Of a stretch of DNA of 64,000 bases, positions 2,878 through 63,313 are shown one piece after another; positions within the stretch are counted from its first letter, which is position 1, and each line of letters opens with the position of its first letter. A program made the position numbers and the translations under genes. The notes under the pieces are model-generated. The model had not been told where the DNA came from. It did no database searches and saw only the letters and a list, made by a program, of their open reading frames with translations. Source of the stretch: an uncultured Gemmatimonadales bacterium (GTDB lineage: Bacteria; Gemmatimonadota; Gemmatimonadetes; Gemmatimonadales; Gemmatimonadaceae); NCBI GenBank assembly GCA_963851265.1, contig CAWKNZ010000005.1:32001-96000 (forward strand). Reading direction: 5' to 3'.

Positions 2878-5316
2878 ATGCGCCCCCCCCGCCTCCTCGC
2901 GGCCCTGACGTTAGGCGTCGCCCTCGCCGCCTGCGGCTCGCAGTCCGACAGCGTTGCCGGCTTCGTACCCGACAAACAGCCGCCGGTGGTCCGCTTCGAC
3001 ACCACCGTCAAGAACGTCGTCGGCGACTCCGCCGTCTCGTTCACCCTCCTCGCGTCCGACAACCTCGACCTCGACCGCGTCCACCTCGACGTGACTGGCG
3101 GCGTGCAGATGTCCATGGACACCACGCTCTCCCCCGCGACCACGACGCTTTCGCTCGCGATGCGCGTCCCGGTCCCGTCGAGTATCGCCGCGGGCACTCC
3201 CATCTACGTCGTCGCCCGCGTGCGCGACGGCGCGGGCAACGTGAGCACGAGCGACACGCTCCGGCTCTCCGCCGGCAACGTCCGCCCGCCGGCCGCAACG
3301 CTCGTCGCGCCCGCGCCCGCATCGCTCTTCGTCGTCGGCAAGAAGAGCGCGCTCTCCATCGTCGCCACGTCGCCGCTCAAGGTCCGCGCCGCCGGCTACC
3401 GCACGACCGGCCCGTTCACCACGAGCGACTCGGTGCTCTACTCCGGCACCGCGCTCGCCGATTCGGTGGTCCTCACCGATACGCTCACAGTCCCCGCCAA
3501 CGCCCCGGCAGGCGTCCTCACCGTCACACCGTTCGTGATCGACGGCGCCGGCCGCGTCGCGACCGGCGCGCCGGTCCAGTACGCGGTCCAGAGCGTTGCG
3601 ACCAACAACGTCGTCCCGGTGCCGTCGTCGGCCTTCCCGGTACGCCTCGAGGCCGCCGACACGGTCCGCGTCGCGGCCTCCGATCCCACGGGGGTGAAGG
3701 TCCTCGGCTATGAGATCGTCTCGCGCGCCGACACCACGCGTCGCTTCGGCGTCGACTCGGTCGTCCTCGACGGATCGCTCGTCAACGACGCCCGCCGCTT
3801 CACGATCCACCTCCGCCCGGACACCCTGCTCGGCACCGCCGACTCGCTCCCGCTCCGCGTCTACGTGCGCGGGTTCGCGACCAACGCGGGCGGTAGGCGC
3901 GCCACCACGCCACTGGTCGCCAGCGGCAACGCGCCCGACACGGCCGTCGTCGTCGCCGGCACCACCAACCCGCTCCCGCAGGGCGGCCAGCTCGCCGACG
4001 GCGTCTACGTGCCACGCCTCGACCGGCTCTACCTGACCAACCTCGCACTCAATCAGCTCGAGGTGTTCGACCTCGCCGGGCGCCGCTTCCTCACGCCGGT
4101 CCCCGTCGGCTCGCAACCGTGGGGCATCGCGGCCTGGCCGCGCGCCAGCGACGGCAGCTTCGGCGACACGCTCCTGGTCGCCAACTCCGGCGGTACCAAC
4201 GTCAGTTACGTCGACCTCACCAGCTCGGGCTCCGGACGCGAAGTCTACCGGTATCCGTTGCCGAACATCGTCGCCTACTCGGTCACGACCGCGCTCGGCC
4301 CGACGGGCGTGCCGATGCAGCAGCGCACGATGTACGACTTCAGCGACCGCCCGCAGTTCCTCGCGACCACCTGCAGCGGCTCGCCGTCCACCGGCAACGG
4401 GTGCGCGGAACCGATCCTCGTCTACTCCACGACGCCCACGGGCGGTCAGTCGCTGCCGTTCCCCCACGCCGGCACCATCCGGTGGGAGAACCTCGTCCGC
4501 CACTCCTCGCACCTGTTCTTCGAGCAGGCCGTCGGACAGTCGGTCGGGCGCCTCGACACGCTCCTCGTCATGCGCTACGCCGCGGGCGGCGTGGGCAGCG
4601 ACTCGACCCTCGTGCCATACCAGCAGCCCGCCACCGACCTTACCACGGGTGCCGCGTCCACGTACTCGGTCGTGGTCAACCTCTCCAACCTCGGCTTCCG
4701 CGACACCACCTACGTCCGCGGTTCGGGCAACTTCGGCCGAGCCATCTTCGGCGAGGGCGGACCGGTGCTCGGTAGCCGCGCCATATCGTTCGACGCGGCC
4801 CGCGGCCTCGCGCCAGCCGAAACCGACATCTTCACCCGGCACACGTATTCCCTCAGCACGCCGGTCACCGACCTCGGCGTTTCGCCTGCGTTCAACGTCT
4901 CGGACTTCATCGCCAACGCCTACGCCCGCATCGCCGGCGTCGCGATCAACTTCGACGGCTCGCTCGGCGCCATCCGCGGCGACTCCACCTACCTGGTCGA
5001 CCCGAAGCTCCGCCTCCAGGGCCTGCTCCAGACCGACGGCGGCGCGAACACGGGCTTCGACTTCCACCCGCGCAACACGGGCAGCACCTCCGCCGCCGGT
5101 ACCCGCTTCGCCTTCTCGGCGGCGCTGCTTCCGCAGATCGAGATCTACGACACGTACTGCTACCAGCGCGTGCGCACGATCCCGGTGCGCGACCCCATCG
5201 TCGGTCCGATCCGCGCCTCGTTCCGCGCCAACGGCGACCTCGTCCTCGTCGGCGCCACCCGCACGGGTGTGATCGTCGTCTCGGTCCCGCAGCCGATCCG
5301 TTCGAGCTGCTCGTGA
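2878..5316 (+). CDS. Large lipoprotein with Ig-like domains and a probable beta-propeller, function unknown
   Basis: ATG 5 nt after the pilQ stop. Lipobox LAAC, Ig-like signatures (ARVRDGAGNVSTS) and YVTN-like repeats (RLYLTN, PVGSQPWGIA, LLVANSGGTNVS). Confidence 0.75.
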   Translation: MRPPRLLAALTLGVALAACGSQSDSVAGFVPDKQPPVVRFDTTVKNVVGDSAVSFTLLASDNLDLDRVHLDVTGGVQMSMDTTLSPATTTLSLAMRVPVPSSIAAGTPIYVVARVRDGAGNVSTSDTLRLSAGNVRPPAATLVAPAPASLFVVGKKSALSIVATSPLKVRAAGYRTTGPFTTSDSVLYSGTALADSVVLTDTLTVPANAPAGVLTVTPFVIDGAGRVATGAPVQYAVQSVATNNVVPVPSSAFPVRLEAADTVRVAASDPTGVKVLGYEIVSRADTTRRFGVDSVVLDGSLVNDARRFTIHLRPDTLLGTADSLPLRVYVRGFATNAGGRRATTPLVASGNAPDTAVVVAGTTNPLPQGGQLADGVYVPRLDRLYLTNLALNQLEVFDLAGRRFLTPVPVGSQPWGIAAWPRASDGSFGDTLLVANSGGTNVSYVDLTSSGSGREVYRYPLPNIVAYSVTTALGPTGVPMQQRTMYDFSDRPQFLATTCSGSPSTGNGCAEPILVYSTTPTGGQSLPFPHAGTIRWENLVRHSSHLFFEQAVGQSVGRLDTLLVMRYAAGGVGSDSTLVPYQQPATDLTTGAASTYSVVVNLSNLGFRDTTYVRGSGNFGRAIFGEGGPVLGSRAISFDAARGLAPAETDIFTRHTYSLSTPVTDLGVSPAFNVSDFIANAYARIAGVAINFDGSLGAIRGDSTYLVDPKLRLQGLLQTDGGANTGFDFHPRNTGSTSAAGTRFAFSAALLPQIEIYDTYCYQRVRTIPVRDPIVGPIRASFRANGDLVLVGATRTGVIVVSVPQPIRSSCS

Positions 5317-5403
5317 GGTAGGCGAGGCGAGAGCCGCGCGGCACGCCCTACCGTCGTCCAACCGGCGCCCCCCGGTTCGGTCGAGGCCGGGCGTCGCCGC
5401 GAG

Positions 5404-6061
5404 GTGGGCGCGCCCGGCCCCGACCCGCGGGACGCGCGGTGCGCGAACGACGGCGCGGCGTCGCGGCGCGCGTTCTGCCCCGAGTGCGGCCAGGCGCAGC
5501 GCGACGTCCACCGGCCGCTGCGGACCTTCGCGAGCGACCTCCTCGAGTCGCTCACGGGTTGGGACCACAAGATCCCGGCAACGTTCGGCCTGCTCCTCGC
5601 CCGACCCGGCGCACTCACTCGAGAGTTCCTCGGCGGGCGCGAAAGCGGTACCTCTCGCCGCTTCAGCTCTACCTGTTCGCCAGCGCTGGTGTTTCTGGCC
5701 CTCCGGACACCGCTCCCGGGTGGGCAGAACCTCGGCGCGTGACGCACGCGCGCGACCACCACCTCCTCTGGCGCCGCGCGCAACGGTTCTACGCGGAGCA
5801 CGGCGTCTTCGCGTGGCACTCGCATGCCCAGGGCCTGATCGCCATCGCGATCCCACGCGTCGTCCCCGGCTGGGCGCACTCCTCCCAACCGCCTGGACGG
5901 TCGCGTACCTCTGGCTCGCCGCGCGCCGGGTCTACGGCGCGAACGGCGAGTCCGCCAGGCGCACCACGGGCAAGGTCGCAGTGCTGAGTGCGGGTTGTCT
6001 GGTCGGCGTCGGCGTCGGCGTGATCATCACGCTGGTCGCCTCGCTTCTGCTCGCGGGCTGA
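5404..6061 (+). pseudogene. DUF3667 family membrane protein, frameshifted remnant
   Basis: Family motifs are spread over three frames: FCPECGQ...WDHKIPATFGLLLARPGALTREFLGGR, then KRYLSPLQLYLFAS and FYAEHGVFAWHSHA, then YLWLAARRVYG. Confidence 0.7.
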
Positions 6062-8519: not shown

Positions 8520-11288
8520 ATGCCGCCAGCCAAGAAGACCGCGCCAAAGACGCAGAAGAGTGGGGCCGACGTCGACGCGCTCGGCCGGCGCTCCCTCGTC
8601 ATCGTTGAATCGCCTACCAAGGCCCGCACGATCGGCCGCTTCCTGCCGCGCGGCTTCCGCGTCATGGCCTCGGTCGGCCACGTCCGCGACCTCCCGCAGA
8701 ACGCGAGCGAGATCCCGGAGAAGTACCGCAAGGAGCGCTGGGCCCGTACCGGCGTCGACGTCGCCAACGACTTCGCCCCGCTGTACGTCGTCCCGGCGAC
8801 GAGTCGCAAGGTCATCAAGGACCTCAAGGACGCGCTGAAGGACGCCGACCAACTCATCCTCGCGACCGACGAAGATCGCGAGGGTGAGAGCATCTCGTGG
8901 CACCTCCTGCAGGAGCTCAAGCCCAAGGTGCCGGTGCGTCGCATGGTGTTCCACGAGATCACCGAGCCCGCCATCCGCCGCGCCCTGAGCGAGTTCCGCG
9001 ACGTCGACGAGAACCTCGTTCGCGCCCAGGAAGCCCGCCGGATCGTCGACCGCCTCACCGGCTACACGGTGAGTCCGCTTCTCTGGACGACCGTCGCCCC
9101 GCGCCTGAGCGCCGGCCGCGTGCAGAGCGCCGCCGTGCGCCTCGTCGTGCAGCGCGAACGCGAACGCCGCGCCTTCCGGAGCGCCACGTGGTGGGACGTC
9201 ATCGCCGACCTCGAACACGCGCGCCAGCGCTTCGAAGCGCGGCTCGTCGCGTTGGGCGGCAGGCGCCTCGCGACGGGGAAGGACTTCGACAAGACCACCG
9301 GCAAGCTCTCCGCGGCCGCCGCCAGGGACGCCCTCCTCCTCGACGAGCCCGCCGCGCGCGCGCTCGTCGAGCGCCTGACGGGCCGGCCCTTCGTCGTCGT
9401 CGACCGCGAGGAGGAGCCGTTCACCACCAAGCCGGCCGCCCCGTTCACCACGTCGACGCTTCAGCAGGAGGCCAGCCGCAAGCTCGGACTCGGCGCGCGC
9501 GACACGATGCGTACCGCGCAGGCCCTCTACGAGCGCGGCTTCATCACGTACATGCGGACCGATTCGGTCAATTTGAGCGACGAAGCCATCTCGGCCGCTC
9601 GCGCCGCGGCGGCAGAGTTCGGGCGCGAGTACGTTCCGCTCCACCCGCGTCGGTACGCCACCAAGAGTGCTAACGCGCAGGAGGCGCACGAAGCCATCCG
9701 CCCGTCGGGCACGACCTTCCGCAAGCCTGACGAGACGGGCCTGGACGGCCGCGACCTGCGCCTCTACGACCTGATCTGGAAGCGCACCGTCGCGAGCCAG
9801 ATGCCCGACGCACGCCAGGTGCGCGTCACCGTCACGCTGGATTGTGAGGACGCGCGCTTCCGCGCGTCGGGCAAGCGGATCGAGTTCCCCGGCTTCATCC
9901 GCGCCTACGTCGAAGGCAGCGATGACCCGGACGCCGCGCTCGAGGACCGCGAGGTCATCCTGCCGGCGATGGACAAGGGCGACCGTCCCTCCGCCCACGC
10001 GCTCCGCCCCGACGGACACGAGACGCAGCCCCCGGCGCGGTACACCGAGGCGTCGCTCGTCAAGGCGCTCGAGGACTTCGGCATCGGCCGCCCCAGCACG
10101 TACGCGAGCATCATGGACACCATCCAGGCCCGCGGCTACGTGCGCAAGGACGGCAAGGCGCTGGTCCCGACGTTCACGGCCTTCGCGGTCACCGCGCTGC
10201 TCGAAGAACACCTCGCGCCGCTCGTCGACACCGAGTTCACCGCGCGCATGGAAACCGAGCTCGACGAAATCGCCCGCGGCGAGCAGGACCAGCTCTCCTA
10301 TCTTCGCGAGTTCTACTTCGGCGACGCCCAGCACCCCGGCCTCGAACCGATGGTCCAGCACGGCGCCTCTGCGGTGAAGAACGAGACCGGCGGCGCCCGC
10401 CGCGTCGAGCTCGAAGGGCTCGGCGCCGCGGTCCGCATCGGCCGCTACGGCCCGTACCTCGAGTTCGAGGAGGACGGCCAGAAGGTGCGCGCCAACCTCC
10501 CCGACACGGTCGCGCCCGCGGACCTCACCGACACGATGGCGCGCGAGCTCCTGCGCCAGCGCGCCGACGGGCCCCCATCGTTAGGCACCGACCCGGCCAC
10601 CGGCCTGCCGGTCTACCTCATGAACGGGCAGTACGGCCCCTACGTCCAGCTCGGCGAGGCTGGTGAGGACGAGAAGCCCAAGCGGGCATCGCTGGCCAAG
10701 GGCATGACCCCGGAGACGATCACGCTCGACCAGGCACTCGGCCTGCTCGCCCTCCCGCGCACCCTCGGCAACCACCCCGAGACCGGCCAGGCGGTCAAGG
10801 CGAGCGTCGGCCGCTTCGGACCGTTCGTCGTCCACGCGAAGGGCGGCCCGGAGGGCAAGGACGACTTCCGCTCCGTTCCCGCCGGCGAGGACGTGCTCAC
10901 CATCTCGCTCGCCCGCGCCGTCGACCTGCTCGCCCAGCCGAAGCGCGCCCGCGGCGCGGGGGCCGGCGGCACGGTCCAGCCGCTTCGCGACCTCGGCGTC
11001 CACGCGCCCACCGCCCTGCCAGTCCTGGTGTTCGAGGGACGCTACGGCCCGTACGTCCAACTCGGCGCGACCCCGGCCGACCGCAAAACCAAACCCGTGC
11101 GCGCGACCCTCCCGAAGGATGTGCAGCCCACGGAAATCACGCTCCCGCAGGCGGTCGCACTGCTCGAAGAGCGCGCCGGATCGCTGCCGGCGGCGGGCGC
11201 GCGCAAAGGTGCAGGGAAGACCACGGCGAAGCGCGCGGCGGCCAAGCGCGCGCCCGCCAAGCGGGCCGCGCGACCGCGCGCGGCGTGA
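8520..11288 (+). CDS. topA: DNA topoisomerase I
   Basis: [41 protein letters not shown] and GIGRPSTY. C-terminal GRYGPY-type repeats and a Lys/Ala tail. Confidence 0.97.
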
Positions 11289-14946: not shown

Positions 14947-16395
<1,449 letters not shown>

Positions 16396-19117: not shown

Positions 19118-20278
<1,161 letters not shown>

Positions 20279-20930: not shown

Positions 20931-20940
20931 GCCTACGCGC

Positions 20941-21453: not shown

Positions 21454-23162
<1,709 letters not shown>

Positions 23163-24274: not shown

Positions 24275-24293
24275 CGGGCGTGGCGCCACCGCG

Positions 24294-26112: not shown

Positions 26113-27099
<987 letters not shown>

Positions 27100-29823: not shown

Positions 29824-29987
29824 TCGTTAGGCAGTTCGCGCGGCGGGGCTCGCCCCACCGCCGCGCGGGTACCCGGCCGAGCGGCCGGGGACGTCCGTTG
29901 TCCACATGCCGGACGCCGACGGACGGCGCGGTGACCACGTCGCCGACGCGGGGACGGCACGACCACGCACCACACCCTGACTCGACA

Positions 29988-44255: not shown

Positions 44256-44304
44256 CGATCCCCCACCGCGGCGGTCGGTGGGGCGGTTCGCGCGCGGTCC
44301 ACGC

Positions 44305-46129: not shown

Positions 46130-48220
<2,091 letters not shown>

Positions 48221-50296: not shown

Positions 50297-50311
50297 CCGC
50301 CTAACACCCGC

Positions 50312-52610: not shown

Positions 52611-54845
52611 CTATCGGCGGCCGGCGTGGCGGATCCGTGCGACGTCGCTGTCGCGCGCGAGCTCGCGGCGCCAGAACACCGTCTCCCCGTAGTTGCGGTT
52701 GATCAGCCGGTTGTACGGAAGGTCGGCCTCGCGGGCGAGGGCGCGGCGGCGTGAGGCGTCGCCGGGTGCCGCCGGCAGCGCGCGCAGCGCGCCGGCGTAG
52801 GCGCCTAACGCGAGGAACAGCTCCGAGTTGGTGCGGAGGAAGAGGCTGTCGGCGCGGCGCTCCTCGGCCGGCGTCCACGGCACACCCGGGATTGCCGCGG
52901 GCGCGCTGCCCCGCCACACCGACGTGTCGCCGATGAGGCGCCGCCATCGCGATTCGACCGTGCGGTACCACCAACGGTCGTCGGCGCCGCCGAGCAGGGA
53001 GTCCTGATTCGCGATGAGGTGACGGGCGAAGGCGACGCGGCCCGCGCTCGATCGGTCGGTCGCGAGTGGGGCCGTCGCGCCGAGACGGCGGGCGAGGTTC
53101 GGGTCGGCGGTGGCGACGACACGGGCGGCGCCGGCCCAGTCGCCGGTGGCCGCGAGGCGGGCGGCGCGGATCCGGACGGCCTCGTTGCGCGGGCCGGTGT
53201 CGGGCGCGGCGCTGAGCGCGGTCAGGACGGAATCGGGCGCGATGACGTCGAGGAAGTAGGCGCGCGCGTCGCGATCGAGCTGAGGGTCGGATAGCGCGCG
53301 CGACCACTGGCCGCGGCGCAATGCGAGCCGCAACCGCATCGACGCGACTGCGGGGCTTGGTGAAAGGAGCGCCGCCTGCGTCTCGGCCTCCGGCCAGCGC
53401 CCGGCGCGGATAAGGATCGCGAGCCGCTCGGCGCCCCAGAGCGCCGTGGGCGATTCGGCGTTCCTGGGAAAGGCGGACGGCAGGAACCCGCCCGCGGAGT
53501 CGCCCAACACGACGCGGAGCAGCCGCTCCTCCGCGTTCACCGCCCATGCGGCGGGACGCGCCGCGTGCGCACGGCGCCACGCGCTGTCCCACGCCACGCG
53601 GGAATACGCCCCCGGCGTGCTCCCACTGCACGCGTACGTGGTACAGCCGAAATCACGGAAGACGAACGCGGAGCGAAGCGCCGGGTCGGCGATCGCGCGC
53701 ACGGTCACCGGGTCTGGATCGGCGCCGAGTCGGAGCAGGAAGTACATCTCGGCGACGGCGCGCCCCTGGTGCCGCGGGTACTCGGCGAGGAGCGTCGCCC
53801 AGGCGCGCGCGGTGTCGCCCGCAAATCGATCGACGCGTACCGTCGAGAAGCGGGCGAGGTCGCCGAGTGGGTGCGAGGGGTATGCCGCGCGCCATGCCTC
53901 GTAGTCGCGCCGGAGCGCACGGAAGGCGGCGACGTCAGGCGCCGCGGTGTCGGGCCATCCGGCGGGGACGAGCGCGCGGGTGCGCTCCTCGAGGGCGACG
54001 AAGCGCAGCGAGGGAAAGCGTGGGGACGACGTGAGGCGCGACGCGGCGGCGGCCAGCTCGGCGCGCGACATGCGCCGCAGGGCGGCCGCTTCCCGAAGCG
54101 CCGGCGGGAGCGACTCGGCGGGGATCGGATCCGGAACGCGGGCGACCTGCGCACGACGCCAGGCGCCGACCCGGGCGCGCGACGCGGCCGCGCTGTCATA
54201 CAGGTACGACACCCTGGGCGTGTCGCGCGGGACGGGCGGCGCGGCGAAGAAGCGCGCGAGGAGGCGGCCATCCGGTGCTTGACCGCTGGCGGCGGTGAGC
54301 GTTGGGCGGAGCTCGAGGTACTCCACCGCGCGCTGCACCACGGGCTGCTCCAGCTGCGCGACCGTGGCGGGCATGTCGAGCGAGCGGGCGACCAGCGATC
54401 GCGCCTCTACCGCGGCCCGGTCGAGTGCGCCCGCGCGGAGCGCAGCTTCGAGTGCGGCGGTCGAGAGGCGCGGGCGCGTGGTGTCCTGCAGGTCCGCGGT
54501 GAGATTCCAGCGCCAGCGCTGGTCCCACAGCCGGAGCAGATCGACCGCCGCCCGCCCGCGGGCCGAGTCGCCGCGAGCCGCGTCCGCGCTGTCCGCGAGG
54601 ATCATCGGCGCGAGAAATCCGAACGCGAAGCCGTCGTCCCCTTCGTACGATCGGCCGCCGCTCAGCGCCGGGTCGTTGTCCACGAGCGCGACGAGGTCGA
54701 GGTACGGCTGGTAGATGTCGGGCGTCCAGCCGCCGCCGCACGCACACGCCGGCGTCGCCGACCACGCCACGCCGACGGCGCCGGCCACGAGTGCCACGAC
54801 CAGCAGCGCGCCGCGCCGACGCCGCAGTCGGACGCGCGTGGTCAA
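52611..54845 (-). CDS. Large secreted alpha-helical hypothetical protein (partner of DUF3142)
   Basis: Signal peptide ending PACA-CGGG and a helical Ala/Arg-rich body with YPSHPL. TTG start overlaps the upstream stop (TTGA). Start uncertain. Confidence 0.65.
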   Translation of the reverse strand: MTTRVRLRRRRGALLVVALVAGAVGVAWSATPACACGGGWTPDIYQPYLDLVALVDNDPALSGGRSYEGDDGFAFGFLAPMILADSADAARGDSARGRAAVDLLRLWDQRWRWNLTADLQDTTRPRLSTAALEAALRAGALDRAAVEARSLVARSLDMPATVAQLEQPVVQRAVEYLELRPTLTAASGQAPDGRLLARFFAAPPVPRDTPRVSYLYDSAAASRARVGAWRRAQVARVPDPIPAESLPPALREAAALRRMSRAELAAAASRLTSSPRFPSLRFVALEERTRALVPAGWPDTAAPDVAAFRALRRDYEAWRAAYPSHPLGDLARFSTVRVDRFAGDTARAWATLLAEYPRHQGRAVAEMYFLLRLGADPDPVTVRAIADPALRSAFVFRDFGCTTYACSGSTPGAYSRVAWDSAWRRAHAARPAAWAVNAEERLLRVVLGDSAGGFLPSAFPRNAESPTALWGAERLAILIRAGRWPEAETQAALLSPSPAVASMRLRLALRRGQWSRALSDPQLDRDARAYFLDVIAPDSVLTALSAAPDTGPRNEAVRIRAARLAATGDWAGAARVVATADPNLARRLGATAPLATDRSSAGRVAFARHLIANQDSLLGGADDRWWYRTVESRWRRLIGDTSVWRGSAPAAIPGVPWTPAEERRADSLFLRTNSELFLALGAYAGALRALPAAPGDASRRRALAREADLPYNRLINRNYGETVFWRRELARDSDVARIRHAGRR

Positions 54846-55865: not shown

Positions 55866-56618
<753 letters not shown>

Positions 56619-56652
56619 CGCACGCCTAACGCATCGCAGAGGTCATACACAC

Positions 56653-57642
56653 ATGGCGAACATTTTCGCATTCGTCGAGACCCGCGGCGGCGACGTCCGC
56701 AAGGCGGGGCTCGAGGCGGTGAGCGCGGCCCGCCTGCTGGCCGACCAGACGGGCGGCGGCGAGGTGCACGCGCTCGTCGCGGGCGCGCCGGGCGTCGCGG
56801 CGCAGTCGGCGCGGCTGGCCGAGGTCGGCGCCGACGTCGTGCTCGTGGTCGAGCACCCCGCGCTGGCGCACTACAACCCCGAGGCGGTGTCGGCGACGGT
56901 CGCCGCGCGCGTCGCGGCCGGCGGCTACCGCGCGGCCGTGTTCTCGGCCACCTCGCAGGGGAAGGACCTGAGCCCGCGCGTCGCGGCCAAGCTGCGCGCG
57001 CCACTCGCGCCCGACGCGATCGCGCTCGCGGTCGAGGGGGACGCGATCGTCGTGCGCCACCCGATGTACACCGGCAAGGTCATCGGCTCGCTCAAGATCA
57101 CCGCGTCCCCGGCGCTGCTGTCGGTGCGGCTGGGGGCGATCCCGGTCACGCCTAACGCCAGGGCCGGGCGCGTCGAGACGGTGCAGCCCGCGAGCGACCC
57201 GGCGGCGGCGCGCGTCAAGGTGACGCAGATGGTCGAAGGGAACACCGGCAAGGTGGACCTCGGTGAGGCGCCGGTGATCGTCGCCGGCGGGCGCGGGCTC
57301 AAGAGCGCGGACAACTTCAAGCTCGTCGAGCAGCTCGCCGACTCGTTCGGGAACGCGGCGGTGGGCGCGACTCGCGCGGTGACCGACGAAGGGTGGCGCC
57401 CGCACTCGGAGCAGATCGGGCAGACCGGGCGCGTGGTGAGCCCGGAGCTCTACGTCGCGGTGGGCATCTCGGGGGCGATTCAGCACCTCGCGGGGATGCG
57501 CACCAGCAAGACCATCGTCGCGATCAACAAGGACAAGGAGGCCCCGATCTTCAAGGTGGCCGACTACGGGATCGTGGGCGACGTGTTCGAGGTGGTGCCG
57601 GCGCTGGCCGAGGCGGTGAAGCAGGCGAAGGCGCAGGGCTGA
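56653..57642 (+). CDS. etfA: Electron transfer flavoprotein alpha subunit
   Basis: VAGGRG, QIGQTG..V.PELY, GISGAIQHLAGM and AINKD.EAPIF. Confidence 0.96.
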   Translation: MANIFAFVETRGGDVRKAGLEAVSAARLLADQTGGGEVHALVAGAPGVAAQSARLAEVGADVVLVVEHPALAHYNPEAVSATVAARVAAGGYRAAVFSATSQGKDLSPRVAAKLRAPLAPDAIALAVEGDAIVVRHPMYTGKVIGSLKITASPALLSVRLGAIPVTPNARAGRVETVQPASDPAAARVKVTQMVEGNTGKVDLGEAPVIVAGGRGLKSADNFKLVEQLADSFGNAAVGATRAVTDEGWRPHSEQIGQTGRVVSPELYVAVGISGAIQHLAGMRTSKTIVAINKDKEAPIFKVADYGIVGDVFEVVPALAEAVKQAKAQG

Positions 57643-58266: not shown

Positions 58267-58292
58267 GCACGTCCACGCACCGCACCCGTATC

Positions 58293-58652
58293 ATGCCTAA
58301 CCTGACGTCCTTTCTCGGAATCCTGCTGATCGTGCTCGGCGGCTGGGGCTACACCCAGTCGGCCACGCGCAGCCCCATGGCGCTCATCCCGTCCGTGCTC
58401 GGCGTGCTCTTCCTCGCGTTCGGCATCGCGGCCGGGCGCGACGAGTGGCGCAAGCACGCGATGCACGGCGCGGCCGCGCTCGCACTGCTCGGGATCGTGG
58501 CCGGTATCGGGCCGGCGCTGATGATGCCCAACGCACCGCCGATGATGCGCCGCGAGACCGGGGCGATGAGCCTTCTGTGCGCGGTGTTCCTCGTCTTCGC
58601 CGTGCGCTCGTTCATCGCGGCGCGACGCGCGCGGACCGCCGGCATCGCGTAG
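58293..58652 (+). CDS. Small hypothetical membrane protein
   Basis: Four TM segments, with S..ALIP, RKHAMH and RSFIAARR motifs. Confidence 0.7.
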   Translation: MPNLTSFLGILLIVLGGWGYTQSATRSPMALIPSVLGVLFLAFGIAAGRDEWRKHAMHGAAALALLGIVAGIGPALMMPNAPPMMRRETGAMSLLCAVFLVFAVRSFIAARRARTAGIA

Positions 58653-58688: not shown

Positions 58689-60890
58689 TCAGTTCGGCAG
58701 CGCGAACGCGACGTACGCGTCGCCCGAGGGCGTGCCGAGCTTGCCGCCCCCGGCCGCGATGACGACGTACTGTCGGCCACGAACCGCGTAGGTGCTCGCC
58801 GTCGCGAACCCGGCGGCGGGCAGCCGGGCCTCCCAGAGCAGGCGTCCGGTCGCCTTGTCGAACGCGCGGAATTTCGCGTCCTCGGTCGCGGCGATGAAGA
58901 CGAGCCCGCCCGCGGTGACGATCGGGCCGCCGTACTGCTCCGTGCCCGTCGGCGCGCCGCCCGGGGTCGAGAGCTCCGGGTGCTCGCCGAGCGGGATCCG
59001 CCAGCGGTACGCGCCGGTGTTGAGGTCGACGGCGCTCAGCGTGCCCCAGGGCGGCTTCACGGCGGGGTAGCCGTCCGGGTCCTTCCAGCGCTCGTAGCCG
59101 GCGAACTCGTACGGCGACGCGTTAGGCCGCCGGCGCGACGCGGCCAGCTCCGCCGCGTGCGGCGAGCCGTCGGCCGGCGACGTCGCCGGCGACGCGGCGG
59201 GGGGTGCGTCCCCGCGCACGTACGCGGCGACGGCCTGCCGCTCCGCCGCGGGCAGGCTGGCGAACGACGGCATGAAGCCACGGCCGCGTTCGAGCACCTG
59301 CTGTACCTGCGCGGCCGAGAGTCGCACGGCGACGCCGACCAGCGACGGCACGCGGTCGCCGTCGCCGCGGCGGTCGGGCCGATGGCACCCGGCGCACGCG
59401 GCCGCGTAGACGGCCGGACCGGTGCGCGGTCCGCGTGCGACGCGCGCGAGCGCTGCCGGCCGCATCGCCGCGATCCACGGCACGTCGCTGCCGTTGACGT
59501 AGAGCACGCCCGTCTCGCGGTCGAACGCGGCGCCGCCCCATTCGCCGCCGCCGTCGAAGCCGGGCATGACGATGCTCCCCGCCACGCTCGGCGGCGTGAA
59601 CAGGCCGCCGGGGCGGAGCGCGCGAAACCGGCGCAGCACGGCCGCGTGCGCGGCGGGCGTGCGGTCCGTGAGGTCGGCCTCCGTGACGGACTGCCGCGTG
59701 AAAGGCGCGGGCAGGAGCGGGAACGGCTGCGTGGGCCACGCCCGCTCGCCGCGCAGGTCCGACGCGGGCACGGCGCGCTCCCGGACCGGGAACAGCGGGC
59801 GGCCCGTGATGCGGTCGAGTAAGAAGATGAAGCCGGTCTTCGTGATCTGCGCGACCGCGTCGACGGCGTGGCCGTCGCGCGAGACGGTGACGAGGTTGGG
59901 GGCCGCGGGCAGGTCGCGGTCCCAGAGGTCGTGGTGTACGGACTGGAAGTGCCAGCGCCGCTCGCCAGTCGCGGCGTCGAGCGCGAGGAGCGTGTTGGCA
60001 TAGAGGTCGGCGCCGGTGCGCGCGCCGCCGTAGAAGTCCGGCGTGGCCGAGCCGGTGGGGACGTAGACGAGTCCGCGCGGCACGTCGACGGCCATCCCGG
60101 CCCACGAGTTCGCACCGCCCGCGCGCGTACCCGCGCCCGCGGGCCAGGTCCCCGCGCCCGGCTCGCCGGGCTGCGGAAGCGTGTGAAACGTCCAGCGGAT
60201 CTTCCCCGTGCGCACGTCGTACGCACGCACGTGGCCCGGCGCGGAGCCCTCGCCCTCGCCGACGCGGGTGCCCTGGATGAGGAGGTCGCGGTAGATCACC
60301 CCGGGGCTCGTGGCGAGGAGCTGCGCGCCGGTGACGTCGCGGCCGAGCCCCACGGCGAGGTCCACCGAGCCCGAATCGCCGAACGTCGGGATGGCACGGC
60401 CCGTCGCGGCGTCGAGGGCATAGAGGCGGCGGCCGGCGGTGACGAGAATGCGGCGGTCGTCCCCGTCGGCCCAGTAGACGACGCCGCGGTTGACGTGCGA
60501 CTCGCGGGTGCGGCCGGCGAACGGGTCGAAGCGCCAGAGCGGCGTGCCGCTGTCGGCGCGGAGCGCGACGACGGCGAGGGCCGGCGTGGTCGTGTAGAGC
60601 ACGCCGTCGACGACGACGGGCGTGGCCTGGATCTCGGAGCGGCCGCCGGGCGGGGCGTCGCCGGTGTGGTAGACCCAGGCGACCTGCAGGTGCCTAACGT
60701 TGTCGCGCGTGATCTGGGCGAGCGGCGAGTAGCGCGTGTTGGCCGGGGTGCCCCCGGTGACCGGCCAGTCGTCGGGCGGGGCGGGCGGGGTGGCGCCGCC
60801 GCGGGCGCAGGCGGCCGCGAACGCCGCGGCGACGGTCGCCGCGCGCGCGGCGCGACCGCGGTGGTCGAGGCGCGTGCCGTGTGGGCGCAT
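58689..60890 (-). CDS. PQQ-dependent (glucose/quinate/shikimate-type) dehydrogenase with an inserted c-type cytochrome domain
   Basis: RYSPLAQIT, QATP, NRGV, HHDLWDRD, GGGEWGG, PPWGTL and GGPIVTAGGLVF. Heme motif CAGCH and an N-terminal lipobox-like AAAC. Confidence 0.88.
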   Translation of the reverse strand: MRPHGTRLDHRGRAARAATVAAAFAAACARGGATPPAPPDDWPVTGGTPANTRYSPLAQITRDNVRHLQVAWVYHTGDAPPGGRSEIQATPVVVDGVLYTTTPALAVVALRADSGTPLWRFDPFAGRTRESHVNRGVVYWADGDDRRILVTAGRRLYALDAATGRAIPTFGDSGSVDLAVGLGRDVTGAQLLATSPGVIYRDLLIQGTRVGEGEGSAPGHVRAYDVRTGKIRWTFHTLPQPGEPGAGTWPAGAGTRAGGANSWAGMAVDVPRGLVYVPTGSATPDFYGGARTGADLYANTLLALDAATGERRWHFQSVHHDLWDRDLPAAPNLVTVSRDGHAVDAVAQITKTGFIFLLDRITGRPLFPVRERAVPASDLRGERAWPTQPFPLLPAPFTRQSVTEADLTDRTPAAHAAVLRRFRALRPGGLFTPPSVAGSIVMPGFDGGGEWGGAAFDRETGVLYVNGSDVPWIAAMRPAALARVARGPRTGPAVYAAACAGCHRPDRRGDGDRVPSLVGVAVRLSAAQVQQVLERGRGFMPSFASLPAAERQAVAAYVRGDAPPAASPATSPADGSPHAAELAASRRRPNASPYEFAGYERWKDPDGYPAVKPPWGTLSAVDLNTGAYRWRIPLGEHPELSTPGGAPTGTEQYGGPIVTAGGLVFIAATEDAKFRAFDKATGRLLWEARLPAAGFATASTYAVRGRQYVVIAAGGGKLGTPSGDAYVAFALPN

Positions 60891-61163: not shown

Positions 61164-62387
61164 ATGGGCGTCGGTCCGACACCGGGGGCGGGGGCGACCG
61201 GGCGCCGCCTAACGATTGCGGTCCGTTCGGCGCTGCTCGCGCCGGCGCTCGCCGCCGCGCACGGCGCCGCCCGCGCGCAGGCGCCCCCGGCGCGCGACGC
61301 CGACTGGACCTTCGGCCCGTTCGTCAAACCGGCCGCGGGCAATCCGGTGATCGTGCCGGCCAGCGGGGCCAGCTTTCGCTCGCCGATGGGCGACAGCGTG
61401 GTGCGCTGGGAGGCGTACGCGACGTTCAACCCCGCCGCGGTCGTGCGCGCAGGCCGGATTCACGTGCTGTACCGCGCCGAGGACTCGAGCGCGGCCGCGA
61501 CGATCGGCGGCCAGACCTCGCGCCTTGGGCTGGCCGAGAGCGCCGACGGGGTGCACTTCACGCGGCGGCCCGCGCCCGTGCTCTACCCCGACAAGGACGC
61601 GCAGGCGCGCTACGAGTGGACCGGCGGGGTCGAGGACCCGCGCGTCGTCGAGCGCGACGACGGGACGTACGTGCTCACCTACACGCAGTGGAACCGCGAC
61701 GTGCCGCGCCTCGCGGTCGCCACCTCGCGCGACCTCGTGGCGTGGACCAAGCACGGCCCCGCGCTGGCCGTCGCCGCCGGCGGCAAGTACCGCAACCTCG
61801 AGTCGAAATCCGGCGCGATCCTCTGCCGCGTGGTGGGCGATTCGGCGCGCGGCGAGCGCCTCGTCGCGGCGCGCGTCAACGGCAGGTACTGGATGTATTT
61901 CAACGTCCCCGCCGTCATGATCGCCACCTCGGACGACCTGATCGACTGGACCGTGGTCGAGAACGCGGACGGGCGGCCGCTCGCGGTGCTCTCGCCCCGC
62001 CCCGGCTACTTCGACTCGTGGCTCGTCGAGGGCGGGCCGCCGGCGGTGCTCACCGCGCGCGGGATCGTGATGCTCTACAACGCCGGCAACGACCGGCGCT
62101 ACGGGGATTCTACACTGCCTAACCACGCCTACACCGGCGGGCAGGCGCTCTTCGATGCGCGCAACCCGATCCGCCTACTCGCGCGCACGGACGCCCCGTT
62201 CATCCGTCCCACGGAGCCGTACGAGACGAGCGGGCAGTATGCGGAAGGGACGACCTTCGTCGAGGGGCTCGTGCCGTTCCGCGGGCGCTGGTACCTCTAC
62301 TACGGCACCGCGGACTCGCGGGTCGGCGTGGCGGTATGGGATCCGCGGGCCTCGCGCCCGCGGGCGGCGGGCCAGGCGACGCCGTGA
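61164..62387 (+). CDS. Glycoside hydrolase family 130 protein, secreted
   Basis: Signal peptide (..ARAQ), FNPAA, LYRAED, SRLGLAES.DG, VEDPRV, FVEGLV and LYYGTADS. Confidence 0.88.
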   Translation: MGVGPTPGAGATGRRLTIAVRSALLAPALAAAHGAARAQAPPARDADWTFGPFVKPAAGNPVIVPASGASFRSPMGDSVVRWEAYATFNPAAVVRAGRIHVLYRAEDSSAAATIGGQTSRLGLAESADGVHFTRRPAPVLYPDKDAQARYEWTGGVEDPRVVERDDGTYVLTYTQWNRDVPRLAVATSRDLVAWTKHGPALAVAAGGKYRNLESKSGAILCRVVGDSARGERLVAARVNGRYWMYFNVPAVMIATSDDLIDWTVVENADGRPLAVLSPRPGYFDSWLVEGGPPAVLTARGIVMLYNAGNDRRYGDSTLPNHAYTGGQALFDARNPIRLLARTDAPFIRPTEPYETSGQYAEGTTFVEGLVPFRGRWYLYYGTADSRVGVAVWDPRASRPRAAGQATP

Positions 62388-63259
62388 CCGCGGGCTTCGA
62401 AGCCGCCGCCGACGCGGTCGTCGCGGGCGACCTCGCCGCGCTCGCGCCGCTGCTGCGCGCCGACCCGTCCCTCGTCCGCGCCCGCTCGGCCCGCGCGCAC
62501 CGCGCGACGCTCCTCCACTACGTCGCGGCCAACGGCGTCGAGGACGCGCGTCAGCGCACGCCGCCCAACGCCGTCGACGTCGCGCGGGCGCTGCTCGACG
62601 CCGGGTCGGCGGTCGACGCAGCCGCGGAGACGTACGGCGGGGGGACGGGACAGACCACGCTCAACCTCCTCGTGTCGAGCGTGCACCCGGCCCGCGCGGG
62701 GCTGCAGGTCGCACTCGTCGACGTGCTGCTGGACGGCGGGGCGCAGGTCGACGGGCCGGCCGGCGACGGCTCGCCGCTGCTCACGGCGCTCGCATTCCAC
62801 TACGCCGACGCGGCCGACGCGCTCGCGCGGCGCGGCGCCCGCCTCGACACCATCTCCGCGGCGGCCGGCCTCGGGCGCGCCGACGTCGTGCGCGCCCTCG
62901 TCGAGAGCCGCGGTCCACACGGAGCGGACGCCGCGCGCGCGCTTACCCTCGCCGCCGCGCTCGGCCACGCCGACGTCGTGGCGTTCCTGGTCGACCGGGG
63001 CGTCGACGTGGGCGCGACCGACGCGCAGGGCTTCACCGCGCTGCACTGGGCCGCCGCGCGGGGGCACGCGCGCGTGGTGGACGTGCTGCTCGACCGCGGC
63101 GCGCCGCTCGACGTGCGCAACGTCTACCGCGGGACGGTCCTTGGCACGACGAGGTGGGCGGCCGCGCACATGGAGGGCACCGCGCGCACCGGCGGGTTCG
63201 AGCCGATCGACCACGGGCCGGTGGTCGATCGGCTCGTCGCCGCGGGCGCGCAGGCCTGA
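62384..63259 (+). CDS. Ankyrin repeat protein
   Basis: TLLHYVA.NGVE, SPLLTAL and GFTALHWAAARGH..VV.VLL..GA. GTGA overlap with GH130. Confidence 0.85.
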   Translation: MTAGFEAAADAVVAGDLAALAPLLRADPSLVRARSARAHRATLLHYVAANGVEDARQRTPPNAVDVARALLDAGSAVDAAAETYGGGTGQTTLNLLVSSVHPARAGLQVALVDVLLDGGAQVDGPAGDGSPLLTALAFHYADAADALARRGARLDTISAAAGLGRADVVRALVESRGPHGADAARALTLAAALGHADVVAFLVDRGVDVGATDAQGFTALHWAAARGHARVVDVLLDRGAPLDVRNVYRGTVLGTTRWAAAHMEGTARTGGFEPIDHGPVVDRLVAAGAQA

Positions 63260-63313
63260 GCGCCCGCGGCAGCGCAGGCCTAACGTGCGCCGCGGCCGCG
63301 GTCGCGGCCCGCG

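What the first reader, a model, noticed from the sequence alone, without database searches (positions are those of the whole stretch)
2910..63284. Highly iterated asymmetric heptamer GTTAGGC/GCCTAAC: candidate undescribed genome-wide DNA signal
Seen: 31 copies in 64 kb (15 GTTAGGC and 16 GCCTAAC on +), about one per 2 kb, and 24 of 31 extend to CGTTAGGC. I noticed only about five other TTAG/CTAA tetramers (near 9670, 14933, 24189, 30275, 38957), several of them one-off variants of the motif, so it accounts for nearly all such tetramers. A base-composition estimate at about 75% GC predicts about 5 copies, and fewer given how rare TA dinucleotides are here. Known: short iterated motifs that penetrate coding DNA include Neisseria/Pasteurellaceae uptake sequences, cyanobacterial HIP1, Chi and KOPS. 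This heptamer matches none that I know. Inference: it is maintained by a sequence-specific process such as biased DNA uptake (a PilQ pilus is in this window), a methyltransferase/repair ratchet, or a nucleoid or recombination protein.
Basis: partly seen in the sequence, partly recalled or inferred. Interest (0 to 1): 0.88.

Follow-up and report, generated by a model that had tools for sequence, protein, structure and literature searches.

The report
Genome-wide DNA word GTTAGGC
This soil bacterium and a scattered set of its relatives have written one exact 7-8 letter DNA word into genes, stop codons and spacers about twenty times more often than chance, much as Neisseria and Haemophilus write the "self tags" they use when taking up DNA, and the word is spelled like the recombination core of the integron gene cassettes that this bacterial order carries.

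Summary
The window holds 31 GTTAGGC/GCCTAAC (2.1 expected). The 4.6-Mb genome holds 1,762 (96-127 expected). It is the most over-represented 7-mer and beats codon-preserving nulls about 20-fold.

The signal acts on DNA, not on RNA or protein. The same YGTTAGGCR word sits in sense, antisense, stop-codon and intergenic contexts. It shows no transcription or replication polarity. It is denser in native-looking genes and absent from a 45-kb divergent segment. It is better conserved than other 7-mers, yet turns over, and is spaced more evenly than chance.

It is abundant in 16 of 401 Gemmatimonadota genomes sampled, all in two families of one order. It is also abundant in the cultured Gemmatirosa kalamazoonensis.

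The word and its flanks equal the R' core of this order's integron attC sites. Its abundance does not track IntI, ComEC, pilin-like or LTD genes, and G000 has no hit to four methylase/Vsr families.

Best reading (0.4): a DUS/USS-like tag kept by biased DNA uptake and recombination, reader unknown. This scan made the same finding before on other windows. I found no paper on it.

The parts
2910..2916 (+). word copy, in frame as nnG-TTA-GGC (Leu-Gly) in the 812-aa gene after pilQ (2878-5316 +)
10580..10586 (+). word copy, Leu-Gly (TTA-GGC) in topA (8520-11288 +)
12761..12767 (+). word copy, Leu-Gly in the GIDA-family gene (11400-12779 +)
15807..15813 (+). word copy, Leu-Gly in the HslU-like AAA gene (14947-16395 +)
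19633..19639 (-). word copy on the antisense strand of the gcvT-like gene; the gene reads nnG-CCT-AAC (Pro-Asn)
20137..20143 (+). word copy, Leu-Gly in the gcvT-like gene (19118-20278 +)
20926..20932 (+). word copy overlapping the TAG stop of the DUF308 gene (20325-20930 +): nGT-TAG-GC
22289..22295 (+). word copy, Leu-Gly in the sigma-54 activator gene (21450-23162 +)
24293..24299 (+). word copy overlapping the TAA stop of the - strand gene 24294-26003 (gene reads GCC-TAA-C)
25953..25959 (-). word copy, Leu-Gly in the - strand gene 24294-26003
26977..26983 (-). word copy, Leu-Gly in the MoxR-type AAA gene (26113-27099 -)
29826..29832 (+). word copy, intergenic, just after the ATP synthase A gene (28726-29823 +)
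31523..31529 (+). word copy, Leu-Gly in gene 31023-31676 +
33344..33350 (+). word copy, Leu-Gly in the glucose-6-phosphate dehydrogenase gene (32829-34523 +)
36174..36180 (-). word copy antisense in the prolyl oligopeptidase gene (35584-37746 +); the gene reads CCT-AAC (Pro-Asn)
39703..39709 (+). word copy, Leu-Gly in the nucleotidyl transferase gene (38978-39964 +)
43895..43901 (+). word copy, Leu-Gly in the GGDEF-EAL gene (41664-44255 +)
44250..44256 (-). word copy overlapping the TAA stop of the GGDEF-EAL gene (GCC-TAA-C)
44967..44973 (-). word copy, Leu-Gly in the - strand gene 44922-46127
47762..47768 (-). word copy, Leu-Gly in cstA (46130-48220 -)
50299..50305 (-). word copy, intergenic between genes 49454-50296 and 50312-51154
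52402..52408 (+). word copy, Leu-Gly in the acyl-CoA dehydrogenase gene (51266-52546 +)
52803..52809 (-). word copy, Leu-Gly in the - strand gene 52611-54893
56624..56630 (-). word copy, intergenic between genes 55866-56618 and 56653-57642
57150..57156 (-). word copy antisense in the ETF alpha gene (56653-57642 +); the gene reads CCT-AAC
58295..58301 (-). word copy antisense at the start of gene 58293-58652 +; the gene reads CCT-AAC
59121..59127 (+). word copy antisense in the PQQ dehydrogenase gene (58689-60890 -); the gene reads CCT-AAC
60692..60698 (-). word copy in the rare sense frame GTT-AGG-C (Val-Arg) of the PQQ dehydrogenase gene
61207..61213 (-). word copy antisense in the GH130 gene (61155-62387 +), frame nGC-CTA-ACn
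62117..62123 (-). word copy antisense in the GH130 gene; the gene reads CCT-AAC
63278..63284 (-). word copy, intergenic between genes 62384-63259 and 63314-64837

Best explanation
YGTTAGGCR is a double-stranded DNA 'self' word of the DUS/USS kind. Some protein of these Gemmatimonadales prefers DNA that carries it, most likely at the DNA-uptake step of natural transformation. Alleles that carry the word are then recombined into chromosomes more often than alleles that lack it. This biased conversion (molecular drive) writes the word wherever the encoded protein allows, against codon preference. It continues until about one copy per 1-3 kb is reached. Shown here: the statistics, the DNA-level and strand-symmetric nature of the word, its bias to native genes, its conservation and turnover, its spacing, and its distribution among genomes. 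Inferred: that the selective step is uptake or recombination, and that a receptor exists.
For: (1) Abundance and sharpness. There are 1,762 copies against 96-127 expected, and the word is the top 7-mer; CGTTAGGC is the top 8-mer at 1,396 against 50-58 expected. Of the 21 one-letter variants, only GTTGGGC is raised about twofold (2.2x); none approaches the word's 18x.
(2) The word overrides codon habits in every open frame. Occupancy of synonymous opportunities is 987 of 10,707 for nnG-TTA-GGC, 195 of 1,418 for nnG-CCT-AAC, 71 of 1,858 for nGC-CTA-ACn and 24 of 3,386 for GTT-AGG-Cnn. 991 of 1,274 TTA codons lie in the word. 114 of 420 TAA stops and 71 of 727 TAG stops lie in it.
(3) The signal is at the DNA level. 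The 293 intergenic copies have the same flanks. Between co-directional genes they split 81 sense to 79 antisense. Intergenic density is 0.51 per kb against 0.36 per kb in coding DNA.
(4) No replication-type polarity. Leu-Gly occupancy is 135 of 1,536 in genes on the locally dominant strand and 26 of 326 on the other strand (p = 0.74).
(5) Bias to native genes. Leu-Gly occupancy rises from 84 of 1,771 in the least codon-adapted fifth of genes to 272 of 2,261 in the most adapted fifth. A 45-kb stretch has no copy, while the largest gap in 300 simulations was 33 kb. That stretch is 73-82% identical to congeners, against 82-89% beside it.
(6) Conservation with turnover. 15 of 24 alignable window copies are kept in G001 or G004. 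All same-phase 7-mers are kept at 36-37%. G001 has 7 and G004 has 9 copies that the window lacks, often differing at 2-3 letters.
(7) Even spacing. Gaps under 200 bp are 2.6% against 7.6% (sd 0.6) simulated. Gaps of 600-3,000 bp are in excess and gaps of 5-10 kb are in deficit.
(9) PilQ and ComEC are present.
Against: Competence has not been shown for any member of the phylum. 0 papers in the library hold both 'Gemmatimonad' and 'uptake sequence'. No receptor was found. ComEC (31 of 31), the pilQ neighbour, two minor-pilin-like proteins and the LTD domain (5 of 31) do not separate word-rich from word-poor genomes. The word has 7-9 informative positions, shorter than DUS or USS (lengths recalled). 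Close inverted pairs are not enriched: 3 and 3 observed at under 60 bp, against 9.2 and 8.4 simulated. This differs from the terminator pairs known for Neisseria, which I know only from a title in the reference list of PMC11893778. No alternative word ('dialect') appears in 400 kb each of two word-poor relatives. The same word recurs in three families, which an uptake receptor alone does not explain. The exact match to the integron R' box, flanks included, points to some link with integron recognition. The 45-kb word-free segment shows that DNA without the word can still enter the genome. The replication-strand test uses local gene-strand majority as a proxy, because GC skew gives no clear replichores in this 12-contig assembly.
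Confidence: 0.4

Rival explanations
1. The reader belongs to the integron system. An IntI-family recombinase, or a host factor that binds the attC/attI R box, recognises the dispersed copies as lone R boxes. Their abundance would then reflect selection or conversion linked to integron recombination, for example landing sites, decoys or integrase titration.
For: The word fits GTTRRRY, the extended IntI1 recognition motif (PMC10127599 passage). In 80 attC-like sites from 7 cassette-array stretches of this order, R' is GTTAGGC in 61. Base -1 is C in 74. Base +7 is G 40, C 18, A 18, T 4. The dispersed word has the same flanks: -1 C 0.79; +7 G 0.54, A 0.22, C 0.19, T 0.05. IntI is common in the order, over the cut-off in 18 of 31 genomes. 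A fixed, conserved recognition core would explain why the same word, with no dialects, recurs in three families.
Against: IntI does not track the word. It is over the cut-off in 5 of 10 word-rich and 13 of 21 word-poor relatives. G000's own intI is split by a 2-kb insert. G001 and G012 have only broken pieces. In genus g42, word-rich G396 has no match at E <= 1e-40, while word-poor G288 has two matches over the cut-off. GTTAGAC makes up 14 of 80 R' boxes but is not enriched in the genome: 64 against 39 expected in G000, and 3 against 3.4 in G. kalamazoonensis. No L-box-like partner is conserved next to dispersed copies. IntI1 needs only GWT to insert into genomes (bioRxiv 10.1101/2022.09.11.507474 passages). 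Counts of attC-like pairs do not rise with word richness beyond chance.
Confidence: 0.15
2. The word is the binding site of a chromosome-organising or nucleoid protein that needs a site every 1-3 kb, in the way Noc or SlmA sites dot a chromosome. Selection on each site keeps it in place.
For: Recognition is strand-symmetric, as expected of a double-stranded site. Spacing is more even than chance, with a deficit of gaps under 300 bp in all orientations. Copies are conserved above background. The largest word-free stretch in G000 contains parA, parB, mnmG and mnmE.
Against: The parAB region carries words in G299, G235 and G012, and some in G004 and G001. The gap in G000 is therefore better explained by an imported divergent segment. 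About 40% of copies are not kept between congeners, and new ones arise elsewhere, which does not fit fixed functional sites. Thousands of exact 7-8-mers are unlike the known nucleoid-protein sites (recalled). No candidate protein was found.
Confidence: 0.12
3. The word is kept by a methyltransferase plus a mismatch-repair ratchet. This is the mechanism proposed for cyanobacterial HIP1 and seen weakly for Dcm/Vsr in E. coli (both recalled).
For: This kind of mechanism would be strand-symmetric and would act at the DNA level. Patchy distribution among genera is typical of restriction-modification genes.
Against: G000 is 94% complete and has no hit to PF01555, PF00145, PF02086 or PF03852. Its two PF02384 loci match only in pieces in different frames. 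A patch-repair enzyme corrects one kind of mismatch at one position. It cannot hold all seven letters sharp or create the word from sequences that differ at 2-3 letters.
Confidence: 0.07
4. The word is a polar recombination or translocation signal of the Chi or KOPS type.
For: Its length, asymmetry and density are in the Chi range (recalled). Its orientation switches along contigs.
Against: Orientation follows gene strand, and the 5:1 coding-strand bias is explained by opportunity: Leu-Gly is far commoner than Pro-Asn, and Pro-Asn occupancy is even higher. Occupancy is equal in genes on either local strand, 8.8% against 8.0%. Forward and reverse counts are balanced in every word-rich genome.
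Confidence: 0.03
5. The signal acts on RNA or translation: a rare TTA codon followed by GGC serving as a pause or regulatory site.
For: 991 of 1,762 copies are in-frame TTA-GGC on the sense strand. A tRNA-Leu(UAA) gene is present.
Against: 771 of 1,762 copies are in other contexts with the same flanks. Antisense Pro-Asn sites are occupied more often than sense Leu-Gly sites. Intergenic copies show no sense bias, 81 to 79.
Confidence: 0.02

Closest known systems
DNA uptake sequences: DUS of Neisseriaceae (read by the minor pilin ComP) and USS of Pasteurellaceae
   Same: A short exact word, hundreds to thousands of copies, about one per 1-3 kb, on both strands, inside genes against codon habits. 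It is over-represented in native/core DNA and missing from imported DNA. It is more conserved than its surroundings. New copies differ from the orthologous sequence at several letters. Spacing is non-random (PMC2397512 abstract and passages; my).
   Different: Uptake bias is untested and competence is unknown in the phylum. There are 7-9 informative positions, not 9-12 (recalled). There are no terminator-type inverted pairs. No dialects were found in two word-poor relatives. Only 16 of 401 sampled genomes of the phylum carry it, scattered over genera. The word coincides with an integron recombination core.
Integron core site GTTRRRY (R' box of attC, R box of attI), recognised by IntI
   Same: The spelling is identical, including the preferred flanking bases, to the commonest R' box of this order's own attC sites (61 of 80). 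The motif definition comes from a passage in PMC10127599.
   Different: Dispersed copies are single boxes with no inverse core, no hairpin and no L box. They lie in frame inside conserved housekeeping genes. Abundance is independent of IntI. The second attC variant, GTTAGAC, is not enriched.
attG genomic insertion sites of integron cassettes (Loot et al., bioRxiv 10.1101/2022.09.11.507474, passages read)
   Same: Double-stranded genomic sites usable by IntI outside integrons, cleaved at G|WT.
   Different: attG needs only GWT plus a weak right-hand CRGM motif and is not over-represented. Here a full 7-8-mer is over-represented about 18-fold.
HIP1 (GCGATCGC) of cyanobacteria (recalled, no paper read)
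   Same: A hyper-abundant exact octamer that penetrates coding DNA, with the mechanism still unknown.
   Different: HIP1 is a palindrome and has been linked to methyltransferases. This word is asymmetric, and G000 shows no hit to four methylase/Vsr families.
Chi and KOPS (recalled)
   Same: Short, asymmetric, over-represented genomic words read by DNA-processing machines.
   Different: Those are polar with respect to replication. This word is not polar, by the proxy test and the forward/reverse balance.
NTS/SRM hairpin repeats cut by Ssn nucleases (PMC11893778, passages read)
   Same: Repeated genomic elements tied to the control of natural transformation.
   Different: NTS are about 28-nt hairpins and only 2% lie inside genes. 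This is a 7-9-bp unstructured word, with 1,469 of 1,762 copies in or touching genes.

Membership tests
DNA uptake sequences (DUS/USS) | A short exact word that is hyper-abundant genome-wide, on both strands | tested here: met
   1,762 copies against 96-127 expected; top 7-mer. Forward and reverse counts are 708 and 688 for the 8-mer.
DNA uptake sequences (DUS/USS) | Enriched in core/native DNA and lacking in recently acquired DNA | tested here: met
   Occupancy is 4.7% in the least and 12% in the most codon-adapted genes. There are zero copies in a 45-kb segment that is 73-82% identical to congeners, against 82-89% in the flanks. Nativeness is judged by proxy only.
DNA uptake sequences (DUS/USS) | Copies are more conserved than surrounding sequence, while new copies arise by multi-letter replacement | tested here: met
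   15 of 24 copies kept, against a 36-37% baseline. 16 lineage-specific copies were found in G001 and G004. The sample is small: one 64-kb region.
DNA uptake sequences (DUS/USS) | Competent cells take up or transform with word-bearing DNA preferentially | not testable with these tools
   This needs uptake or transformation assays. No report of competence in the phylum was found.
DNA uptake sequences (DUS/USS) | A cognate receptor (ComP-type minor pilin in Neisseria) | tested here: inconclusive
   Seven pilin-like genes were found in G000. The two large ones have homologues in word-rich and word-poor genomes alike. Specificity could lie in sequence differences rather than presence.
DNA uptake sequences (DUS/USS) | DNA uptake machinery present (type IV pilus secretin, ComEC) | tested here: met
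   PilQ is at window 746-2872. ComEC is in 31 of 31 relatives. This is necessary but does not discriminate.
Integron recombination site (attC/attI) | Core GTTRRRY | tested here: met
   GTTAGGC fits the motif. It is the R' box of 61 of 80 local attC-like sites.
Integron recombination site (attC/attI) | Paired inverse core, with a hairpin (attC) or an L box and accessory sites (attI) | tested here: not met
   No conserved flank lies beyond -1 and +7. attC-oriented pairs at 60-160 bp number 8, against 12.4 simulated. Only 4 attC-like pairs exist in G000.
Integron recombination site (attC/attI) | Presence depends on an integron integrase | tested here: not met
   IntI is over the cut-off in 5 of 10 word-rich and 13 of 21 word-poor relatives. 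See also the contrast within genus g42.
Chi / KOPS | Orientation bias with respect to replication direction | tested here: not met
   Occupancy is 8.8% against 8.0% on the two local strands, p = 0.74. Local gene-strand majority was used as the proxy for replichore.
HIP1-type methylation-linked words | A cognate DNA methyltransferase in the genome | tested here: not met
   No hit to PF01555, PF00145 or PF02086, and none to Vsr PF03852. The two PF02384 loci match in pieces in different frames. The genome is 94% complete, and other methylase families were not searched.

The most novel reading that the evidence does not exclude
The word is an uptake or recombination tag that was copied from, and stays anchored to, the attC R' box of integron cassettes. 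The DNA-import machinery of these lineages would then preferentially capture DNA carrying the cassette core, feeding natural transformation straight into integron cassette recruitment. A side effect would be to drive the same word through the whole chromosome. Anchoring to a conserved recombination core would explain three things: why the identical word, flanks included, arose in three families; why it has no dialects; and why it can be gained or lost within a genus.
Probability: 0.15. Interest if true: 0.95.

Novelty: new variant of a known kind. Interest (0 to 1): 0.82.

Why it matters
Sequence-biased DNA uptake is known from only two proteobacterial families, and the USS receptor is still unidentified (recalled). 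A third, independent case in a distant soil phylum would show that "self tags" are a general outcome of transformation. It would also provide a fresh system for finding a receptor. That system includes a cultured strain: Gemmatirosa kalamazoonensis KBS708 carries 892 copies on one 1.1-Mb replicon.

In genus g42, three genomes hold 3,479-4,141 copies and one holds 66. Genus g75 shows a graded series.

The exact identity with the integron attC core ties the word to recent evidence that natural transformation feeds cassette recruitment in chromosomal integrons (PMC12614218, abstract). If the link is causal, it would be a new coupling between two gene-exchange systems.

In practice, the word marks native against imported DNA in these genomes, as the 45-kb word-free segment shows. 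It may also help in binning and in finding horizontal transfer in Gemmatimonadales metagenomes.

Tried and rejected
- **Maximal-order Markov** hides the word, because its 5- and 6-mers are the word itself. I used orders 1-3 and codon shuffles instead.
- **Replichores by GC skew:** no usable signal in this assembly.
- **Origin markers:** canonical parS with up to 2 mismatches gave no hit. E. coli-type DnaA boxes gave 64 loose hits and no cluster of 3 or more.
- **Origin exclusion.** The 45-kb word-free stretch holds parAB, mnmG and mnmE. The same region carries words in five other word-rich genomes, so I dropped this idea in favour of an imported divergent segment.
- **Avoidance of attC mimics as the cause of the short-gap deficit.** The deficit is strongest for direct pairs (9 against 41.4 at 60-160 bp) and weakest for attC-oriented pairs (8 against 12.4). 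Rejected.
- **Reader candidates with no link to word richness over 31 relatives:** IntI, ComEC, the 812-aa pilQ neighbour, two minor-pilin-like proteins, the LTD domain of Ddb-like DNA-capture loci, and the number of attC-like pairs (the 37 in G012 are at or below my rough chance estimate of about 60).
- **Dialects.** No other hyper-abundant 7/8-mer appears in 400 kb each of G006 and G015. The top words there are codon-type words at 2-3x, such as CGAGCAG.
- **Unusual tRNA set.** The complement is ordinary, with one tRNA-Leu(UAA).
- **Ssn/NTS system.** Read and set aside, because NTS are intergenic hairpins.
- **Literature searches for the word as a string** returned 4,851 papers. The 30 listed were unrelated by title and abstract.
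- **Accession CP007129 without prefix** was not found. The record was reached by a protein search instead.
- **Not used:** sequencing runs, read laying, structure prediction, complex prediction and protein atlas tools.

Full report
**Observation.** The window holds 31 exact copies of GTTAGGC, 15 on the + strand and 16 on the - strand, between 2910 and 63284. Dinucleotide-preserving shuffles give 2.1 on average and never more than 7. 24 of the 31 copies extend to CGTTAGGC (10-mers). Only 5 of the 36 TTAG/CTAA tetramers lie outside the word.

**Genome-wide statistics.** The window is G000:C5:32001-96000 of a 4.60-Mb, 12-contig, 73% G+C assembly.
- The genome has 1,762 copies, against 160, 96 and 127 expected under Markov orders 1, 2 and 3.
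- It is the most over-represented 7-mer under orders 2 and 3. CGTTAGGC is the top 8-mer, at 1,396 against 50-58 expected. The word accounts for 1,762 of 2,470 TTAG tetramers.
- I built a codon-usage gene caller: 3,641 genes, 88% coding. 26 of 29 window ORFs that I checked had Pfam families.
- With these calls, shuffling synonymous codons within each gene gives 45 sense and 29 antisense copies, against 1,015 and 269 observed. No shuffle of 20 exceeded 58 or 41.

**Anatomy of the word.** The seven core letters are all-or-none. Among the 21 one-letter variants only GTTGGGC is raised about twofold (2.2x), and it is the TTG-GGC stepping stone. Base -1 is C 0.79 / T 0.14. Base +7 is G 0.54 / A 0.22 / C 0.19 / T 0.05. 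Beyond these, only the three-base rhythm of coding DNA is seen.

Contexts of the 1,762 copies:

| Context | Copies |
|---|---|
| In frame as nnG-TTA-GGC (Leu-Gly) | 991 |
| Intergenic | 293 |
| Antisense, gene reads nnG-CCT-AAC (Pro-Asn) | 198 |
| Over a TAA stop (GCC-TAA-C) | 114 |
| Over a TAG stop (GT-TAG-GC) | 71 |
| nGC-CTA-ACn | 71 |
| GTT-AGG-C | 24 |

- 991 of 1,274 TTA codons, the rarest Leu codon, lie in the word.
- 114 of 420 TAA stops lie in it.
- The share of peptide contexts that could carry the word and do is 9.2% for Leu-Gly, 13.8% for Pro-Asn, 3.8% for x-Leu-Thr and 0.7% for Val-Arg, which needs two rare codons.
- The 5:1 coding-strand bias is thus a matter of opportunity, not of strand.

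**The signal acts on DNA.** Intergenic copies keep the same flanks. Between co-directional genes they are 81 sense to 79 antisense. Intergenic DNA is somewhat denser in the word, at 0.51 against 0.36 per kb. Word orientation follows local gene orientation. Leu-Gly occupancy is the same in genes on the locally dominant strand (135 of 1,536) and on the other strand (26 of 326; p = 0.74). This speaks against RNA-level, translational and Chi/KOPS-like readings. One caveat applies: local gene-strand majority is only a proxy for replication direction, because GC skew was uninformative. A tRNA-Leu(UAA) gene exists, so TTA can be read.

**Distribution along the genome.**
- Against 300 simulations that place the same numbers of copies at random among matching opportunities, gaps under 200 bp are 2.6% against 7.6% (minimum 6.1%). 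Gaps under 500 bp are 11.0% against 17.8% (minimum 15.1%).
- Gaps of 600-3,000 bp are in excess and gaps of 5-10 kb are in deficit.
- The short-gap deficit holds for all orientations and is strongest for direct pairs.
- Density rises with codon adaptation. Leu-Gly occupancy is 4.7% in the lowest fifth of genes and 12% in the top two fifths.
- The largest gap is 45 kb at C1:182876-227962, against a simulated maximum of 33 kb. It holds core genes including mnmG, parA, parB and mnmE.
- The same region has words in G004, G001, G299, G235 and G012.
- In G000 this region is only 73-82% identical to its congeners, against 82-89% just outside it and 83-90% in the window.
- I read it as a segment replaced from a more distant, word-less donor.

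**Evolution of the copies.** In the syntenic region of two congeners (87% identity), 8 of 14 alignable window copies are kept in G001 and 7 of 10 in G004. All 7-mers of the same codon phase are kept at 35.9% and 37.4%. G001 has 7 copies and G004 has 9 where the window reads GTTGGGC, GCTCGGC, CCTCGGC and the like. The word is therefore maintained above background and also created anew in each lineage. The sample is one 64-kb region.

**Who has it.**
- HslU is 93% identical to a MAG labelled Gemmatirosa sp. and 69-74% identical to other Gemmatimonadaceae/Gemmatimonadales MAGs.
- I call a genome word-rich if the 8-mer count is at least twice that of the reversed word.
- By this rule 10 of 31 close relatives are word-rich. 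These include all 5 of the genus, and one genome (G030) of a third family, f3.
- In an even sample of the phylum, 16 of 401 genomes are word-rich: 13 of 95 in family f1 (9 genera), 3 of 166 in f2 (all genus g75), 0 of 5 in f3 and 0 of 135 in nine other families.
- Genus g42 has three genomes with 3,479-4,141 copies and one with 66.
- Word-poor genomes hold the word at 0.05-0.3 times the control.
- These tallies include the unpublished genomes G011, G078, G117 and G198 as word-poor rows.
- Two word-poor relatives show no other hyper-abundant word in 400 kb each.
- The 1.106-Mb replicon NZ_CP007129.1 of the cultured Gemmatirosa kalamazoonensis KBS708 has 892 copies against 50 of the control. A 400-kb sample of it gives 310 against 7.8 expected, with the same flanks and codon phase.

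**The integron coincidence.** I tested this.
- GTTAGGC fits GTTRRRY, the extended recognition motif of IntI1 (PMC10127599 passage).
- In word-poor genomes the few copies cluster every 0.5-1 kb on one strand, in two cases beside IntI genes.
- Seven such stretches, including the G. kalamazoonensis integron reported by IntegronFinder 2.0 (PMC9024848 passage), hold 80 attC-like pairs 72-149 bases long. R' is GTTAGGC in 61 and GTTAGAC in 14. Base -1 is C in 74. Base +7 is G 40, C 18, A 18, T 4. These are the flanks of the dispersed word.
- Against a direct role of IntI: it is over the cut-off in 5 of 10 word-rich and 13 of 21 word-poor relatives.
- G000's own intI is split by an insert carrying a large serine recombinase.
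- In g42 the word-poor genome has two IntI genes and one word-rich genome has none at E <= 1e-40.
- GTTAGAC is not enriched genome-wide.
- Dispersed copies have no partner box.
- Counts of attC-like pairs do not follow word richness.

**Search for a reader.** No candidate separated word-rich from word-poor genomes:
- ComEC, present in 31 of 31.
- The unknown 812-aa gene after pilQ.
- Two large pilin-like proteins, out of seven found.
- The LTD domain, 5 of 31. This followed note e1-7819079 on a Ddb-like DNA-capture locus; of the ddb paper I saw only the search listing.

G000 has no hit to the methylase families PF01555, PF00145 and PF02086, nor to Vsr. Its two PF02384 loci match only in pieces in different frames.

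**Interpretation.** The set of properties is the one described for DUS and USS (PMC2397512, abstract and passages). I therefore put a DUS/USS-like tag, kept by biased uptake and recombination, first at 0.40. Uptake bias, competence and a receptor are all untested.

| Rival reading | Confidence |
|---|---|
| Integron-linked reader | 0.15 |
| Chromosome-organising protein site | 0.12 |
| Methylase/repair ratchet | 0.07 |
| Polar Chi/KOPS-type signal | 0.03 |
| RNA or translation signal | 0.02 |

The rest is left for something not thought of. The boldest reading still open combines the first two ideas: an uptake tag anchored to the attC core, coupling transformation to cassette capture. This would fit the report that transformation feeds cassette recruitment in Vibrio cholerae (PMC12614218, abstract). 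It would also explain why one identical word, with no dialects, recurs in three families.

**Novelty and limits.**
- This scan reached the same finding before on other windows of this genome and on other genomes.
- In the paper library I found nothing. 0 papers hold both 'Gemmatimonad' and 'uptake sequence'. The searches gave no relevant title.
- Paywalled papers and supplements were not seen.
- Gene calls are my own.
- Nativeness and replication direction rest on proxies.
- The conservation test uses one region.
- Presence/absence tests cannot see changes of specificity within a conserved protein.

Noticed in passing
G000:C6:3005-6044 (locus L050), outside the window: The genome's integron integrase gene (- strand) is split. 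Residues 2-265 match at 5244-6044 and residues 260-313 at 3005-3166. A roughly 2-kb insert lies between them and encodes a large serine recombinase on the + strand (Resolvase, Recombinase and Zn_ribbon_recom domains). attC-like sites lie at 925-1021 and 1592-1708.
   Followed up: partly
G000:C1:182876-227962, outside the window: A 45-kb stretch has no copy of the word and holds core genes (mnmG, parA, parB, mnmE, phosphoglucomutase). It is 73-82% identical to two congeners, against 82-89% in the flanks. It looks like a large homologous replacement from a more distant donor. dnaA lies about 180 kb away on the same contig (C1:12048-12530).
   Followed up: partly
G000:C7:771474-772495 and G000:C9:923-1858, outside the window: The only two N6_Mtase (PF02384) loci of the genome match the family in four and five pieces in different reading frames. 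They are either frameshifted pseudogenes or carry assembly indels.
   Followed up: no
window 6170-7996 (+): One 608-aa ORF carries both chorismate synthase (residues 4-380) and shikimate kinase (429-583). This is an AroC-AroK fusion.
   Followed up: no
window 8520-11288 (+), topA: TopA is 93-96% identical within the genus, 68% to G014 and 59% to G029 (another family). It is only 42-45% identical to the other relatives matched over most of the N-terminal part, and those matches end near residue 650. G000 has a distinct long-form TopA, possibly transferred.
   Followed up: no
window 2878-5316 (+): An 812-aa protein with no Pfam family lies directly after pilQ. Full-length homologues (34-48% identity) keep this place near topA in several other genera, for example on G015:C5, G016:C5 and G014:C22.
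   Followed up: partly
G000:C10:194558-203792, outside the window: Three attC-like sites (GCCTAAC, then 83-105 bases, then GTTAGGC, with hairpin-type sequence) lie far from the intI remnant. This is a cluster of attC sites with no integrase gene matched on that contig.
   Followed up: no
NZ_CP007129.1 (W01) 1490-51815 and 54550-104874: Word positions in the G. kalamazoonensis replicon repeat at an offset of exactly 53,060 bases over about 45 kb (1490-44629), with small shifts beyond that. This indicates a direct duplication of roughly 50 kb in the record.
   Followed up: no
whole genome G000: ARAGORN reports four tRNA-Arg(GCG) calls and one call with a four-base anticodon loop reading (cgcg). 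I did not examine them.
   Followed up: no
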